This document shows positions 2,659 to 52,630 of a stretch of DNA of 64,000 nucleotides, piece by piece. How positions within the stretch are numbered: position 1 is the first letter of the stretch; the number at the start of each line of letters is the position of its first letter. The DNA lies in NCBI GenBank assembly GCA_000092065.1, contig CP000599.1; one strand, 5' to 3'. This DNA is from Ostreococcus lucimarinus (lineage: Eukaryota). The notes beneath the pieces are model-generated. The model was not told where the DNA came from. It saw only the letters and a program-made list of their open reading frames with translations, and made no database searches. Made by a program: the position numbers and the translations under genes.

Positions 2659-2698
2659 GACACGTCGTTTCGCGACACGTCGTTTCGCATGACGTGTC
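2659..2698. promoter_or_regulatory. Three GACACGTC (ACGT-core) elements upstream of AMT: a 15-nt direct duplication plus one inverted copy
   Basis: gacacgtcgtttcgc occurs at 2659 and again at 2674, followed by gacgtgtc (the reverse complement of gacacgtc) at 2691-2698. Confidence 0.3.
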
Positions 2699-2810
2699 GC
2701 GCGCGCACCCGGAGACGCGCCGCATTCCTCGACGCCGAGCTCGTCGGTTTCGCGCGCGCACGCTCGAACCGCGACCGCGAAACGAAAGAATATATAATCT
2801 CTCATCATGG

Positions 2811-3173
2811 GTGCGTGCGCGATGCGCGATAGCGACGTCGTCGGTGCCGCGAACGAGGCGACGATCAGAGACGATTCGACGACGCATTCGAATGCGCGCG
2901 AAGCGACGCGGCGCGAAGCGACGCGGCGCGCGGTCGCGCGCGACGATCGGCGACGGCGAGTGATGGTTGGAAAAGTTTTACATCGTTTGTGGCGCGCGCG
3001 GGGGGCGTCGCGTCGTCGCGGGCGCGGAGAGGACGGACGCGGTCGAGGGGGACGACGCGACCCGCAATTCGACGAGCTGGGGCGGGTCGGTTGATTGAGG
3101 GTTGAAGTGGGATTACACTGTTTACGCATACGCGCTCGGGTGACTGACGAAGACGCGAATCGCGCGCGCGCAG
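2811..3173 (+). other. Putative spliceosomal intron immediately after the AMT start codon
   Basis: ATGG|GTGCGTGCGC donor at 2811, GTGACTGACGA branch at 3141-3150, GCGCGCAG acceptor ending at 3173. The phase is compatible (G+CT=Ala) and gives MAVGDDVDINFMLTNTF... Confidence 0.4.
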
Positions 3174-4471
3174 CTGTTGGTGATGACGTCGATATCAACT
3201 TTATGCTGACGAACACCTTCTTGGTGTTCTTCATGCAAGCCGGCTTCGCGATGTTGTGCGCCGGATCCGTGCGAAGCAAGAACACGAAGAACATTTTGAT
3301 TAAAAACGTGCTCGACGCGTGCGTCGGCGCCATCGCGTGGTTCTTGTTTGGCTACGGTTTCGCGTTCGGGGCGACGACCGGAAAGAAGGAAAACGCGTTC
3401 ATCGGTTCCGGTAACTTCGCGATGAAGGACGTCACCACTGCGAGCGAATTGGCGATGTACTTGTTCCAGTGGTCGTTCTCCGCTGCGGCGACGACGATCG
3501 TGTCTGGCTCTGTCGCCGAACGCACCAAGTTCGAGGCGTACCTCGGCTACTCTTTCTTCCTCACCGCCTTCGTGTACCCGGTCGTCGTGCACTGGACCTG
3601 GAGTGGTGGCGCGGGCTGGTTGGGCACTGGCTACACTTTGGGCGACAAGGTCGCTGACGTTGGCATGCACGACTTCGCCGGCTCTGGCGTCGTCCACATG
3701 GTTGGTGGTTTCGCTGGTTTGATGGGCGCCATGATCGTCGGTCCGCGCACCGGTCGCTTTGCTTCCGATGGTCGCGTGAACCCGATGCCGGGCCACTCCG
3801 CCCCGCTCGTCGTTCTCGGCACCTTCGTCCTCTGGCTCGGCTGGTACGGCTTCAACCCGGGCTCCGCGGGCGGCGTCGTCGACAACGCTGAAACTGTGGC
3901 CCGCTGTGCCATCACCACGACGCTCTCCGCCGCCGCTGGTGGTGTGACAGCCATGCTCTTGAACTACAAGTTGTACCACGTCTGGGACTTGATCGCCGTG
4001 TGCAACGGTGTTCTCGCGGGTCTCGTCTCCATCACCGCCGGTTGCGCCGTCACGGAACCGTGGGCCGCCCTCGTCTGCGGTTCGCTCGGCGCCCTCGTCA
4101 TTCACTTCTCCTCCAAGCTCTTGCTCAAGTTCCAAATCGACGATCCGCTCGAAGCGGCGCCGATGCACGGCTTCTGCGGCGCCTTCGGCGTTCTCTGGGT
4201 CGGTTTCATGGCCAAGAAGGAATACGCCGAGGCTCAGGGTGCCAGAGCTGGTGCGTTTTACGAAGGTGGCGGCAAGCAACTCGGCGCGCAAATCGTCGGT
4301 ATCCTCGTCATCATCGCGTGGACGTGCGGCACCATTGGTCCCTTCTTCATGTTGATGAAGAAGTTCAACTTGCTCCGCACCACCGTCGAAGAAGAGACGC
4401 TCGGCTTGGACGAATCCAAGCACGGCGGCAAGGCGTACGCGCTGGAACTCGTCGCTCCGGAACCAGCGTAA
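3174..4471 (+). CDS. AMT1: Ammonium transporter (Amt/MEP/Rh family, AMT1-like), main coding exon
   Basis: Hallmark motifs FLVFFMQAGFAMLCAGSVRSKNTKNILIKNVLD, DFAGSGVVHMVGG and GFNPGS, with multiple TM helices. The ORF-track start at 3095 is a TTG. The first in-frame ATG is at 3203. A probable 4-nt first exon ATGG (2807-2810) is spliced to 3174 (see findings). Confidence 0.92.
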
Positions 4472-4627
4472 ACGTGCGCTCCACGGGTTGAACGAACGTA
4501 TCGTCGGTCAGAAATTTTCTGAGCACGTACATCCCGCTCGTTTCTGCGAAGAAGGCGCTCGTACGCACGCGTTCGCGCGTCTCTTTTTCACTCTTAACCA
4601 TCACAAAACAGATTCACCTTCCTCTTT

Positions 4628-4632
4628 TGTAA
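4628..4632 (+). terminator. TGTAA candidate poly(A) signal for AMT
   Basis: ttttgtaaaacc lies in the AT-rich convergent gap between AMT and the HAD gene. Confidence 0.35.
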
Positions 4633-4670
4633 AACCGATGATTACTATACCTATTATTATTACACCTCGA

Positions 4671-5798
4671 TCACCACGCGAAACGTTCGATCACGTGCGT
4701 CGGCGTCGCATCGGGATGCTCTCGCAGAACGTCCTCGAGCGCTCGAAGCTTCAACTCCGCGGCGTGAACGCCCACTCCTCGCACGAACACCGTGTCCACG
4801 CCCGCGCGCGCGCCGCCGGCGACGTCGTGCGCCAACGAGTCTCCGACGGCGACGACGCGCGATTTATCCAAATCGCCGCCGGCGGCTTTGATTTCCCACA
4901 GCAACTCTTCGTAAATGATGGACGACGGCTTCCCCATCAAACACACGTACGCCTCGCCGTCCTCGCCCGCGTGCGTGGCGTTGAATTTATCGACGTAATA
5001 TCTCGCGAGCGTCCCCGGCATGGCGACGAGCGTCTCGCCCGAAACCGTCACGAAATCCGGATTCGCGACGCACAGAGGCACCTTGGCCGCCGCCGCCCGT
5101 TCGACGAGCGCCCGCATCGTCTCCTCGTCCACGGTCTCGCACGGCTTCCCATCGCCGCGCCCGATCGCCTCCGTCCCGTGCGCCAACACGAAATCCACGC
5201 GTTCGATCGCGTTCGCGTCGCCAGCGTCGTCGGCCGACGAAACGTCCACGATTTCGATTCGCGCGTTCGTCTCCTCGCCCAGCGTAATCGCGCCGCGAGC
5301 GCTCCACGTCAAATGCGCCGCTCTCGCTCTCCTCCCCTCCGATCTCGCCCCATCGATCGCGCGTCGCAAGCGACGAAAATTATCTCCCATCGCCGTCGTC
5401 TTTTCCGTTCTCCAATCGTCCGCGTCGCGCGTCGCGAACCGCCGCGCGACTTCGCCGCTCGTCATCGCGCCGCGAAACGCCGTCGCCGAGAACCCCATCG
5501 ACGCCAACCGCGCGATCGTGCCCTCTCGACCGCGCGAGGAGTTCGACACGATGTATATCCGCTTCCCCATCGCGGCGAGCGCGTCGACGCACTCGACGGC
5601 GCCGTCGTACGGCGTCGAACCGTCGTGCAGTAGACCAAACTGGTCCAGCAGCCAAACGTCGTAGTCGTCCGCGAATCGCGACACGCGCGTCGCGCGCGTC
5701 GACGTCATCGCCGCGGAATCGCGCGAGCGACGCCGTCGCGAGCGCGCGGACGACGCGCGCGCGGTGGCGACGCGAGAGAGATTCGACGCCGTCGCCAT
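4671..5798 (-). CDS. HAD-superfamily hydrolase, subfamily IIA (TIGR01459-like)
   Basis: LLDQFGLLHDGSTPYDGAVECVDALAAMGKRIYIVSNSSR, a C-terminal AVGDSLAHDVAGGARAGVDTVFV motif, and an Arg/Ser-rich N-terminal presequence. ATG at 5798. Confidence 0.8.
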   Translation of the reverse strand: MATASNLSRVATARASSARSRRRRSRDSAAMTSTRATRVSRFADDYDVWLLDQFGLLHDGSTPYDGAVECVDALAAMGKRIYIVSNSSRGREGTIARLASMGFSATAFRGAMTSGEVARRFATRDADDWRTEKTTAMGDNFRRLRRAIDGARSEGRRARAAHLTWSARGAITLGEETNARIEIVDVSSADDAGDANAIERVDFVLAHGTEAIGRGDGKPCETVDEETMRALVERAAAAKVPLCVANPDFVTVSGETLVAMPGTLARYYVDKFNATHAGEDGEAYVCLMGKPSSIIYEELLWEIKAAGGDLDKSRVVAVGDSLAHDVAGGARAGVDTVFVRGVGVHAAELKLRALEDVLREHPDATPTHVIERFAW

Positions 5799-12315: not shown

Positions 12316-12901
12316 TCACGCGGCGGGCGCGCTCGATCGCGTCGGACGCGAGCCTCGTAAGCGCGGCTGTCGGACGCGCTCGAAGAATTCTTGCCAAAAC
12401 GGGAGCTCGTACGCGCGACCGACCTCGCGAGCGATGTCCCACGCCGAGACGAGGCCGACGAAGACGCCGTCTCGGTCGGTGACGGCGACGTGGTGCACGC
12501 GATTGCGCATCAGCACGGCGCTCACCTCATCGCGCGTCATCCACGGACTCGCCTGAATCACCGCCTTGTTCGCCACCGCGCCGCACGCGCAGTCCATGGG
12601 AAGCTTTTCGAGCCACCACTCCAGCGCGTCCGCCTTGGTGACGACGCCGACCGGTTTCCCGGCGTCGAGCACGCACACGCACCCGACGCCGTCGTAGGCC
12701 AGCGCGTGTACGACGCTCTCGATCGTATCGTCCGTCGTCGCCGTGATGCACCTGCGCGAGCGAAACGCGCGCGCGCGGTTCAGTCGAACGTCCTCGCGCG
12801 CGCCGTCGCCTCGTCGTCTCGCGCGTCGCCGCGTCGCGCGTCGTCGCCTCGCGCACGCACGCGCGCGCGGGGGTCATGAAATCTCGGCACGTCGGCACCA
12901 T
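12316..12901 (-). CDS. CBS-domain pair protein, two exons (12861..12901 and 12316..12751)
   Basis: Exon 1 is MVPTCRDFMTPARA. Exon 2 is CITATTDDTIESVVHALAYDGVGCVCVLDAGKPVGVVTKAD ... VHHVAVTDRDGVFVGLVSAWDI. The two ORF-track fragments (12527..12901 and 12316..12678) are joined in phase. Total length 477 nt. Confidence 0.7.
12752..12860 (-). other. Spliceosomal intron (109 nt) in the CBS gene
   Basis: On the minus strand: GTGCGTGCGC donor, TTCGACTGAACC branch, CTCGCGCAG acceptor. Confidence 0.6.
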
Positions 12902-50867: not shown

Positions 50868-51283
50868 GCCGCCATAGCACTAGCATAATATTAGATTTGT
50901 ATTGACCAGCGCGCTTAGCACGACTTCGGCGCCGTGCGTCCCCGCGCGCTTTCGCTCGCCGCCGCGCCGGCGCTCGACCGTCCCGCTCGACCGTCCCTCA
51001 CATCCAAGCGCGCGGTCGAATGCCCATCGGCGCGCGCGCGTTCGCCGTCTCGGCATCGCGTGCGCCCGTGCGATCGCAACTCCGCGCTCGCGCGCGCCGC
51101 GAGCGCGCCGACGGCGTCGCGAGACGACGATTTATCTCGCACAAAGGGGACACCCTCAAGCCTTGTGAATCAGTTCTACCGCGCGCACGCGCGCGCGCGA
51201 GCGATCTCGCGCCTCGCGACGGCGTAAACTTGCAGACCATCATTTTGAGCAAGCTCCCGAGCGCTCGCGCGGACGTGGCGACG

Positions 51284-52630
51284 ATGACGTCGGGAGATGC
51301 GACGAAGATTTTTTTCACCGCGCTCGCGGCGCTCGCGCTCGTCGCGGCGCGCGCGGCGGCGCGCGCGCTGACGACGCGCGAGGCGAAGAAACGCGTGGTG
51401 ATCATCGGTGGTGGATTCGCTGGGATGCAAGCGGCGCTGGATCTGCGGAAAACGTGCGAGGTGACGCTGATTGATAAGAAGCGGTATTTCGAATACGTCC
51501 CGGGGACGCCGGCGGCGCTCGCGGGCGCGGCGCCGTTGAGTCCGGCGTCGCGCGGAGACTCGGCGAAGAAACGCGAAAAGACGCTGACGGTGCCGTATAG
51601 CAAGGCGCTCGGAAAGAGCGTGGCGTTCGAATGCGCGGCGGGACGAGACGTGCGGGTGATGAGCGCGTACGTGGACGTCGGCGGCGACCGCTTTGAATAC
51701 GACGAATTGATACTCGCCACCGGGAGTCATTATCCGGGCGTGTTGAAAGCGGAGTGCGACGGTGAGGCAGGAGAAGACAGAGATGCGAGAATGCGAGAGA
51801 TCGCCGAGGCGCGAGAGGACGTGACGAAGGGGAAATCGGTCGTCGTCATCGGAGGCGGCGTCGTCGGCGTCGAGGTCGCGGGCGAACTCGCGGCGAGAAA
51901 CGCCAAGATGAAATCGGGTGCGCGCGTGATTCTCGTGCACAGCGGCCCAAGGTTGCTCGATACGTTGCCCAAGTTTGTCAGTGAGTATGTGTCGAAAACG
52001 CTCGTGAGATTTGGGGTGGAGGTGTACGTCGGGCAAACGTACGACCGCGTCGGCGACTCGTTCGTCGGGCGAATGAACGAAAACGTCATCGAGGGCGATA
52101 GGGTCATGATGTGCGTCGGCGCCAAGCCCGCGACTGAGTTCTTGGATCGGGAGAGCGTGAACTTCAGCGAAGATGACGATGACTCGCCGCTAAATTTTCC
52201 GCTCGACATGATTGGGCGCGTTCGAGTGGACGAGGCGACGCGTCAAGTCATCGGCTACGACAACGTCTACGCCGTCGGCGACTGCGCGTGTAAATTACCG
52301 GACCAGATGCTCGCTTCGTACGCGCACTGGGAGGCCGAATACGTGTCAAAGCGAATCATGTGCGACGGCGACGCTCGCGCGCTCGGGAAACTCGGCAGAT
52401 ATCGTCTTCCGCCGCGGTTGATGGCGATTTCTCTGGGCCCGTTCGCGGGCGTCGTCGTCTGGGGCGACAGAATTTTATGCCGCGGATGGTGCGCCGCCGT
52501 GTTCAAGGCGTTGATCCAGTTTTGGTTCATTCGCTTCCTTCCCGCGCCGTATTCCATCATGAAGAGATTCCCTCGCATGCGCGTGAAACCGCCCGCGAGT
52601 GTGATTTTGCGCAAACCGCTCGCGAATTAA
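51284..52630 (+). CDS. FAD/NAD(P)H-dependent pyridine-nucleotide-disulfide-family oxidoreductase (AIF/FSP1- or NDH-2-like) with N-terminal membrane anchor
   Basis: KRVVIIGGGFAGMQAALDL (dinucleotide fold 1), SVVVIGGGVVGVEVAGELA (fold 2) and VYAVGDCA. The alternative upstream in-frame ATG at 51020 cannot be excluded. Confidence 0.8.
   Translation: MTSGDATKIFFTALAALALVAARAAARALTTREAKKRVVIIGGGFAGMQAALDLRKTCEVTLIDKKRYFEYVPGTPAALAGAAPLSPASRGDSAKKREKTLTVPYSKALGKSVAFECAAGRDVRVMSAYVDVGGDRFEYDELILATGSHYPGVLKAECDGEAGEDRDARMREIAEAREDVTKGKSVVVIGGGVVGVEVAGELAARNAKMKSGARVILVHSGPRLLDTLPKFVSEYVSKTLVRFGVEVYVGQTYDRVGDSFVGRMNENVIEGDRVMMCVGAKPATEFLDRESVNFSEDDDDSPLNFPLDMIGRVRVDEATRQVIGYDNVYAVGDCACKLPDQMLASYAHWEAEYVSKRIMCDGDARALGKLGRYRLPPRLMAISLGPFAGVVVWGDRILCRGWCAAVFKALIQFWFIRFLPAPYSIMKRFPRMRVKPPASVILRKPLAN

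What the first reader, a model, noticed from the sequence alone, without database searches (positions are those of the whole stretch)
2807..3173. Ammonium transporter may start with a 4-nt coding exon (ATGG) followed by a 363-nt intron
The AMT frame has no ATG upstream of 3203, which would begin the protein inside TM1. At 2807 the sequence ATGG|GTGCGTGCGC gives a start codon followed directly by the window's consensus donor. The same GTGCGTGCGC decamer opens the CBS-gene intron. The branch GTGACTGACGA (3141-3150) and the acceptor GCGCGCAG|CT (3173/3174) fit, and the phase is right (G+CT). The result is MAVGDDVDINFMLTNTFLVFFMQ... There is a caveat. A TATATAA sits only 10 nt upstream of this ATG, which is too close to be its TATA box. 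An alternative model with a 5'UTR intron and a start at 3203 remains possible.
Basis: inference. Interest (0 to 1): 0.5.

Follow-up and report, generated by a model that had tools for sequence, protein, structure and literature searches.

The report
Four-base first coding exon, confirmed
The ammonium-transporter gene of the tiny marine alga Ostreococcus lucimarinus does start with a 4-base coding exon (ATGG) followed by a 363-base intron, as spliced environmental transcripts show, but the public genome annotation already has exactly this model, so it is correct and ordinary.

Summary
The window is Ostreococcus lucimarinus CCE9901: one window ORF is 448/448 identical to XP_001422384.1.

Eleven transcript-like contigs of about 1.5 kb, from eleven environmental samples and at least two alleles, match window 2724/2743-2810. 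They then continue directly at 3174, giving the junction ATGG|CT. One contig carries a template-switch-oligo tail in front of window base 2724, and a second starts at that same base.

The 83-nt leader has no ATG, so the TATATAA at 2791-2797 lies inside the 5'UTR. Unspliced RNA would stop at the TGA at 3092-3094.

Related strains keep the donor and the branch/acceptor region unchanged. In several the codon corresponding to window 3203 is TTG, so the rival "start at MLTNTF" fails.

The exact 433-aa spliced product is already public as XP_001422370.1 / A4SAD9. The finding is therefore already known, and interest is low.

One by-product: Ostreococcus AMT1 relatives share this phase-1 intron, with the coding part of exon 1 being 4, 13, 16 or 25 nt. 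The window gene has the shortest form.

The parts
2724..2810 (+). Exon 1: an 83-nt 5'UTR (2724-2806, no ATG) plus the 4-nt coding part ATGG (2807-2810). The start codon sits in the context CATCATGG (A at -3, G at +4).
   Evidence: Contigs L001-L011 match 2724/2735-2743..2810 at 100%. L001 has ACATGGGG (template-switch-oligo tail, from my own knowledge) just before window base 2724, and L002 starts at the same base. Absence of ATG in the UTR was checked.
2791..2797 (+). TATATAA inside the 5'UTR. It is not a TATA box for this gene.
   Evidence: All transcript contigs start at least 48 nt upstream of it, except the truncated L011, and read through it. It is replaced by AATAAAAAATAA in L023.
2811..3173 (+). 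Phase-1 GT-AG spliceosomal intron, 363 nt.
   Evidence: It is absent from the 11 transcript-like contigs and present in the syntenic genomic contigs L013-L023. The shared G allows a 1-nt slide of the junction. The GT-AG rule fixes it at 2810|2811 and 3173|3174.
2811..2820 (+). Donor site GTGCGTGCGC.
   Evidence: Invariant in all genomic relatives. The same donor, G|GTGCGTGCGCGA, occurs in the tandem AMT paralogues.
3092..3094 (+). In-frame TGA inside the intron. It ends the reading frame if the intron is retained.
3140..3150 (+). Branch-site-like GTGACTGACGA. CTGAC is at 3144-3148 and its A at 3147 lies 26 nt before the acceptor.
   Evidence: Invariant in L012-L023. The same GACTGACG motif precedes the acceptor in the paralogue introns and in L036. 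Use as a branch point is inferred, not shown.
3166..3173 (+). Acceptor GCGCGCAG.
   Evidence: The junction seen in the transcripts. Two other phase-compatible AGs (3107, 3152) are not used.
3174..4471 (+). Coding part of exon 2, with the stop at 4469-4471. Together with ATGG it encodes the 433-aa Amt/AMT1 ammonium transporter.
   Evidence: Translation. PF00909 is listed for the hits. Solved Amt/Mep structures match down to E = 1e-60. The product is identical to XP_001422370.1.
3203..3205 (+). Internal Met codon (M12), the rival start. It aligns with the start of transmembrane helix 1.
   Evidence: It is TTG in L023, L029 and L032. E. coli AmtB aligns from query residue 2.
4472..4663 (+). 3'UTR of about 170-190 nt.
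   Evidence: The longest transcript contigs end at about 4633-4663. The convergent HAD-hydrolase ORF ends at 4671.

Best explanation
This is the 5' end of an AMT1-type ammonium-transporter gene of Ostreococcus lucimarinus CCE9901.

Shown here:
- Transcription starts at about window 2724.
- The 83-nt leader contains no AUG.
- A canonical phase-1 GT-AG intron (2811-3173, 363 nt) follows the fourth coding nucleotide and is removed from the mRNA.
- The spliced product is the 433-aa protein MAVGDDVDINFMLTNTF..., identical to the deposited gene model.

Inferred:
- Under ribosome scanning, the first AUG (2807, context A at -3 and G at +4) is the initiator.
- The branch point is the A at 3147 in CTGAC.
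- Splicing is obligatory for making the transporter, because a retained intron gives a 95-codon dead-end ORF ending at the TGA at 3092.
- The 4-nt coding exon is the shortest state of an old intron shared by Ostreococcus AMT1 orthologues and tandem paralogues. In these the coding part of exon 1 is 4, 13, 16 or 25 nt, differing by whole-codon indels.
For: Organism and annotation: window ORF 51020-52630 is 448/448 identical to XP_001422384.1 of O. lucimarinus CCE9901. The exact 433-aa spliced product equals ABP00687.1 / XP_001422370.1 / UniRef A4SAD9, 'Amt family transporter: ammonium', on the same 154,676-nt record. Six other N-terminal variants are not in the collection.

Splicing: cluster members P0127 and P0133 (MAVSDDVDVNF...) and P0129 (MATGDDVDINF...) are 433 aa long. 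They sit on 11 contigs of 1.4-1.6 kb from 11 samples. BLAST and MAFFT show each contig as two blocks, window 2724-2743..2810 and 3174 onward, with nothing between.

Transcript ends: the contigs end within the gene, with most 3' ends at 4589-4663. L001 starts with ACATGGGG immediately before window base 2724.

Genomic counterparts: syntenic metagenome contigs of 5-35 kb keep the intron.

Conservation:
- The donor, the first 60 nt and the last 69 nt of the intron are 100% identical in nearly all close strains.
- Against the most distant relative, L023, these regions are 93% and 97% identical, while the CDS is 89% identical.
- The 3203 ATG is TTG in L023, L029 and L032.

Shared intron: tandem paralogues and the positional orthologue L036 have the same phase-1 intron after 13-25 coding nt. 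The transcript-derived protein P0006 reads MSTLT|ELDTK..., which fits this.

Literature: long, well-supported 5' introns (323 and 406 nt) are reported for Micromonas AMT1.1 (PMC2944026).
Against: - None of the spliced contigs is from strain CCE9901 itself. They are environmental relatives (about 96-98% identical over the start of exon 2, 100% over exon 1).
- I could not read the sample metadata, so their RNA origin is inferred from their structure: gene-length contigs, the missing intron, and the oligo tail.
- Start-codon use is inferred from the scanning model. No N-terminal peptide or ribosome-profiling data were available, and minor initiation at 3203 by leaky scanning cannot be excluded.
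- The look-up of encoding contigs did not find the exact protein, although listing of cluster members did.
Confidence: 0.95

Rival explanations
1. The intron lies entirely in the 5'UTR and translation starts at the ATG at 3203 (MLTNTF...), giving a 422-aa protein.
For: 3203 is the first ATG inside the long uninterrupted ORF. A bacterial-style gene call on a related contig starts there (P0002).
Against: - In the spliced mRNA the first AUG is 2807, in good context and in frame, with no AUG upstream.
- The 3203 codon is TTG (Leu) in L023, L029 and L032, while the ATGG microexon is kept.
- A start at 3203 would remove the conserved D-x-N-F that aligns with the N-terminus of AmtB.
- The 422-aa product is not in the protein collection.
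Confidence: 0.03
2. There is no intron. The gene is read straight through from a non-ATG start (TTG at 3095 or GTG at 3140), as in the 458-aa and 443-aa database entries.
For: P0001 and P0125 (458 aa) and P0121 and P0126 (443 aa) are called this way on many metagenome contigs.
Against: These are prokaryote-style gene calls on eukaryotic DNA. The extra residues (RVEVGLHCLRIRARVTDEDANRARA) are absent from all 11 transcript-like contigs. The organism is a eukaryote with an annotated spliced model.
Confidence: 0.01
3. The intron-less contigs are not mRNA. They would be assembly artefacts or a genomic deletion allele.
For: I could not check the sample metadata. The contigs carry no poly(A) tail.
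Against: - Eleven samples and at least two alleles give the identical junction.
- Every such contig begins at 2724-2743 (one at 2781) and ends before the neighbouring gene. Contigs that contain the intron run past these limits (L012 from 2687, L035 to about 4688).
- L001 has a template-switch-oligo tail.
- The deleted interval has exact GT...AG ends.
Confidence: 0.01

Closest known systems
Public gene model XP_001422370.1 / ABP00687.1 / UniRef A4SAD9 (Amt family transporter: ammonium, Ostreococcus lucimarinus CCE9901)
   Same: The protein is identical from the first to the last residue (433 aa, MAVGDDVDINF...). That is only obtainable by joining ATGG to 3174.
   Different: Nothing differs in the model.
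Long 5' introns of Micromonas AMT1.1 (McDonald et al. 2010, PMC2944026)
   Same: Same order (Mamiellales) and same gene family. Each has a single, well-supported 5' intron longer than the genome average (323 and 406 nt, against 363 nt here).
   Different: The exact position and phase of the Micromonas introns were not checked here, so homology of the introns is not shown.
Start-codon introns (Nielsen and Wernersson 2006, PMC1626468)
   Same: The intron lies essentially at the start codon, so the first exon contributes almost nothing but the AUG.
   Different: That class is phase 0, directly after the ATG, and is enriched in short, lysine-rich, often ribosomal proteins. This intron is phase 1, after nucleotide 4, in a 433-aa membrane transporter.
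Tandem AMT paralogue and positional orthologues in other Ostreococcus lineages (L023, L024-L032, L036)
   Same: They share the Kozak context TCATCATG, the phase, the branch-like GACTGACG motif and the GCGCAG acceptor. All but L036 also share the donor G|GTGCGTGCGCGA.
   Different: The coding part of exon 1 is 13, 16 or 25 nt, the introns are about 440 nt, and the N-terminal tails are longer. L036 uses GTACGCGT as donor.

Membership tests
U2-type GT-AG spliceosomal intron | GT at the 5' end and AG at the 3' end | tested here: met
   GT at 2811-2812 and AG at 3172-3173. Both are invariant in the relatives.
U2-type GT-AG spliceosomal intron | Removed from mature RNA with exact exon joining | tested here: met
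   Eleven transcript-like contigs join 2810 to 3174. Their RNA origin is inferred from structure.
U2-type GT-AG spliceosomal intron | Branch-point motif (CTRAY-like) roughly 18-40 nt upstream of the acceptor | tested here: inconclusive
   CTGAC is present at 3144-3148, 26 nt upstream of the acceptor, and is conserved. Actual use as a branch point cannot be shown with these tools.
U2-type GT-AG spliceosomal intron | Splicing restores a continuous reading frame | tested here: met
   ATGG plus 3174-4471 gives 433 codons and a stop. Unspliced RNA stops at 3092-3094.
Amt/Mep/Rh ammonium transporter family (PF00909), AMT1 type | Match to the family profile and to solved Amt/Mep structures over the whole length | tested here: met
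   PF00909 is precomputed for all close hits. phmmer against PDB gives Amt/Mep2/AmtB at E = 1e-60 to 1e-34, covering residues 2-426.
Amt/Mep/Rh ammonium transporter family (PF00909), AMT1 type | Conserved pore residues (the Asp and twin histidines of AmtB: D160, H168, H318) | tested here: met
   Read directly from the translation...MHDFAGSGVVHMVGG... and ...APMHGFCGAFG.... The correspondence to AmtB numbering is from my own knowledge, not from a residue-by-residue check.
Amt/Mep/Rh ammonium transporter family (PF00909), AMT1 type | Ammonium transport activity | not testable with these tools
   Needs an uptake or complementation assay.
Start-codon introns in the sense of Nielsen and Wernersson | Phase 0, between codons 1 and 2 | tested here: not met
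   With GT-AG ends the intron is phase 1, after nucleotide 4. A phase-0 reading would need GG...CA ends.
Start-codon introns in the sense of Nielsen and Wernersson | Host proteins are short, lysine-rich and often ribosomal | tested here: not met
   The host is a 433-aa polytopic membrane protein. The class definition is from the abstract read.
Introner-like repeated intron elements (as described in Micromonas) | Many near-identical copies of the intron sequence in different genes | tested here: not met
   blastn of the intron against the 64-kb window gives only short GC-rich low-complexity hits. A metagenome scan with the exon 1/donor pattern returned AMT loci only. The whole genome was not searched.

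The most novel reading that the evidence does not exclude
The intron may be more than a passive interruption. Between the window and its most distant intron-bearing relative (L023), identity is 95% in the 5'UTR, 93% in the first 60 nt of the intron and 97% in the last 69 nt. This compares with 89% for the CDS, 85% at four-fold degenerate sites and 79% in the middle of the intron.

Every Ostreococcus AMT1 orthologue or paralogue examined keeps a long phase-1 intron within 4-25 nt of the AUG. Retention of the intron kills the reading frame.

This fits a conserved regulatory role, such as splicing-dependent or intron-mediated control of transporter expression in response to nitrogen. It does not prove one.
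Probability: 0.15. Interest if true: 0.35.

Novelty: already known. Interest (0 to 1): 0.08.

Why it matters
The practical value is in annotation quality. It shows that a 4-nt coding first exon in a compact algal genome is real, and that the deposited model is right.

It also shows that the many 458-aa, 443-aa and 422-aa versions of this protein in metagenome catalogues are artefacts of bacterial gene callers applied to eukaryotic DNA.

For nitrogen-uptake biology of picophytoplankton it fixes the true N-terminus: a 10-residue tail before transmembrane helix 1. That matters for topology and targeting predictions, which McDonald et al. 2010 note depend on gene models that are often faulty at the 5' start. 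No new mechanism is implied.

Tried and rejected
1. Motif statistics. The donor decamer is not enriched over shuffles, so it cannot carry the argument.

2. Exact look-up with the look-up of encoding contigs. It returned 'not on record' for the 433-aa protein. This was a false negative, because the listing of cluster members found it.

3. P0036 (MGNFMLTN...) as a possible alternative splice form. No canonical splice site can produce it. It is most simply the template-switch-oligo tail ACATGGGG fused to a 5'-truncated cDNA starting at AACTTT. This is an inference: the source has no contig to inspect.

4. Intron retention. The intron-containing short contigs L012, L034 and L035 come from a different sample series. 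L012 runs past the transcription start (it begins at window 2687) and L035 past the mRNA 3' end, so these two at least look like genomic fragments.

5. An intron-less orthologue. I first read the P0008/P0269 type (...TAMAANVNSNFLL, contiguous) as intron-less. Reading the locus L036 showed an upstream ATGTCGACGCTCACCG|GTACGCGT exon and the same intron. The transcript-derived P0006 (MSTLT-ELDTK...) agrees, so the idea was dropped.

6. Introner or repeat origin of the intron: no second copy in the window.

7. Rfam scan of the whole window at gathering thresholds: no hit.

8. Organism identification from the first two protein searches failed because names were lacking. Cluster membership gave it.

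Full report
**1. Observation**

The sequence features are exactly as described:
- ATG at 2807-2809 and G at 2810.
- GTGCGTGCGC at 2811-2820.
- GCGCGCAG ending at 3173, with exon 2 starting with CT at 3174.

The interval 2811-3173 is 363 nt. The ATG at 2807 lies in the same frame as the AMT ORF, but an in-frame TGA at 3092-3094 separates them. There is no in-frame ATG between that stop and 3203. Joining ATGG to 3174 gives a 433-aa product, MAVGDDVDINFMLTNTF..., ending at the TAA at 4469-4471.

On motif statistics alone the site is not special. The exact decamer occurs 3 times in the window against 1.2 expected, and 12 of 100 shuffles do as well. With one mismatch allowed it occurs 35 times against 36 expected.

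**2. Organism and existing annotation**

A homologue search with the spliced protein returned only unnamed environmental proteins at the top. The best cluster (P0001) is a 458-aa bacterial-style call starting at the TTG at 3095.

A second window ORF (51020-52630, an NADH-dehydrogenase-like protein) led to a cluster containing XP_001422384.1 of Ostreococcus lucimarinus CCE9901, on a record of 154,676 nt. It is 448/448 identical to the window.

An exact-sequence look-up then showed that the predicted 433-aa spliced protein is itself in the public databases. It appears as ABP00687.1 / XP_001422370.1 / UniRef100_A4SAD9, 'Amt family transporter: ammonium [Ostreococcus lucimarinus CCE9901]', on the same 154,676-nt record. 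The 422-aa product from 3203 and five other N-terminal variants are not present.

**3. Transcript evidence**

The P0001 cluster also holds 433-aa members: P0127 and P0133 (MAVSDDVDVNF...) and P0129 (MATGDDVDINF...). They are encoded on eleven contigs of 1.4-1.6 kb from eleven JGI or Logan samples.

Alignment and BLAST show that each contig matches the window in two blocks. The first is 2724-2743..2810 at 100% identity, and the second starts at 3174, with nothing between. The sequence reads ...AATATATAATCTCTCATCATGG|CTGT....

The contigs end at 4589-4663 (one, L011, is shorter at both ends), just before the convergent HAD-hydrolase gene. L001 begins with ACATGGGG, which I recognise from my own knowledge as the 3' tail of the SMART template-switch oligo. 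It is followed immediately by window base 2724, and L002 starts at that same base. This places the cap site at about 2724.

The 83-nt leader has no ATG. So 2807, in the context CATCATGG, is the first AUG of the mRNA. The TATATAA at 2791-2797 is simply part of the 5'UTR.

Intron-containing short contigs (L012, L034, L035) come from another sample series. L012 starts upstream of the transcription start and L035 runs past the mRNA 3' end, so these two look like genomic fragments rather than retained-intron RNA.

Because the exon and the intron share a G, the junction could slide by one base. Only 2810|2811 and 3173|3174 give GT...AG ends.

**4. Comparative evidence**

Syntenic genomic contigs from Tara Oceans and other metagenomes (L013-L022, 94-98% identical; L023, about 85%) all keep three features:
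- CATCATGG|GTGCGTGCGCGA at the exon 1/intron boundary.
- GTGACTGACGAAGACGCGAA before the acceptor.
- The ...GCGCGCAG|CT acceptor junction.

The first codons of exon 2 vary freely (GTTGGT, GTTTCG, ACCGGA, ACTGAC).

In L023, L029 and L032 the codon corresponding to window 3203 is TTG (NFLLTS). In those lineages the microexon ATG is the only possible start before FFMQ, deep in helix 1. E. coli AmtB aligns with the query from residue 2, so M12 falls at the beginning of transmembrane helix 1.

**5. Origin of the 4-nt exon**

L023 carries a second AMT gene in tandem upstream. Its 5' end reads ...CTCTCATCATG TCT GCT CTT CTC G|GTGCGTGCGCGACGCGCGA... and later ...GAGACTGACGG...CGCGCGCAG|AG ACG.

A metagenome scan for TCTCATCATG-N(0-30)-GGTGCGTGCGCGA returned ten loci, all AMT genes:
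- The coding part of exon 1 was 4 nt in the window type, with introns of 359-369 nt.
- It was 13, 16 or 25 nt in the tandem paralogue type, with introns of 441-445 nt.
- The intron was phase 1 in every case.

The positional orthologue in a more distant Ostreococcus (L036; its protein family is about 76% identical to the window protein) has ATGTCGACGCTCACCG|GTACGCGT and the same GTGACTGACGG...GCGCGCGCAG acceptor region. The transcript-derived protein P0006, MSTLT|ELDTK..., matches that structure.

The simplest reading is inference: one old phase-1 intron that predates the duplication, with whole-codon indels in exon 1, and O. lucimarinus holding the minimal state.

McDonald et al. (2010) reported well-supported long 5' introns (323 and 406 nt) in Micromonas AMT1.1 (PMC2944026). 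Introns hugging the start codon are a known phenomenon in eukaryotes, although the described class is phase 0 and mostly in ribosomal-type proteins (PMC1626468).

**6. Mechanism**

- Shown: the transcript boundaries, the removal of 2811-3173, and the restored frame.
- Inferred from the scanning model: initiation at 2807.
- Inferred from sequence and conservation: branch point at A3147.
- Follows from the sequence: unspliced RNA yields only a 95-aa product, so splicing is required for transporter synthesis.

**7. What remains open**

Against L023, the 5'UTR (95%), the first 60 nt of the intron (93%) and the last 69 nt (97%) are more conserved than the CDS (89%), four-fold degenerate sites (85%) and the middle of the intron (79%). 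This could reflect regulatory elements in a genome with very short intergenic spacers. It rests on one divergent comparator, and the four-fold sites here are clearly not neutral. I give a regulatory role for the intron a probability of about 0.15.

**8. Verdict**

Observation confirmed and interpretation supported. The feature is a genuine 4-nt coding first exon followed by a 363-nt intron, but it is already in the public annotation and belongs to a familiar kind of gene structure. Interest is low.

Noticed in passing
L023 1-2131 and 2482-4242; also L029 and L032: Some wild Ostreococcus lineages carry two AMT1 genes in tandem where the window has one. Both copies share the 5'UTR end, the donor and the phase-1 intron. 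The upstream copy has a 13-25-nt coding first exon.
   Followed up: partly
Proteins P0002 and P0004; window CDS 3174-4471 compared with L013-L023: Amino-acid identity between strains (98.4%; 86.5% for L023) is lower than, or about equal to, identity at four-fold degenerate sites (99.6%; 85.2%). P0002 and P0004 look like mosaics of the window-type and tandem-paralogue-type sequences. This suggests gene conversion between AMT copies, or chimeric metagenome assemblies, together with strong codon bias.
   Followed up: no
Protein cluster P0018: The cluster at about 72% identity to the window protein contains OtV6_115c of Ostreococcus tauri virus RT-2011, a virus-encoded ammonium transporter related to this host gene family. 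Many environmental members sit on contigs of up to 190 kb.
   Followed up: no
window 2659-2700: Two tandem copies of GACACGTCGTTTCGC (2659-2673 and 2674-2688) are followed by ATGACGTGTCG. All have ACGT cores and lie 25-65 nt upstream of the inferred transcription start. They are candidate promoter elements. The homologous stretch is only partly kept in L023 (172-225).
   Followed up: no
window 2886-2930 (middle of the intron): The window and L014/L017 carry a duplicated GCGCGAAGCGACGCG unit. Other strains have GCGCGGGGCGTCGGTCGACG followed by one unit. L018 has an extra 7-nt insertion near 2865. So the middle of the intron is polymorphic in length (359-369 nt) while its ends are fixed.
   Followed up: partly
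window 12752-12860, minus strand: The first intron of a CBS-domain gene (about 109 nt) begins with the same GTGCGTGCGCGA and ends with ...GACTGAAC...CTCGCGCAG. This hints at a strong preferred donor context, GTGCGTGCGCGA, in this genome.
   Followed up: partly
window 51020-52630: The deposited protein XP_001422384.1 (448 aa) starts at residue 89 of a 536-aa ATG-initiated ORF. Environmental gene calls use the full 536 aa. The annotated start of this NADH-dehydrogenase-like gene may be too far downstream, or the long ORF may be spurious.
   Followed up: no
Protein P0036 (MERC, ERR1712224): Its N-terminus MGNFMLTN... cannot be produced by canonical splicing. It is best explained as the template-switch-oligo tail ACATGGGG fused to a truncated cDNA. 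This is a caution for protein catalogues assembled from SMART-type metatranscriptomes.
   Followed up: partly
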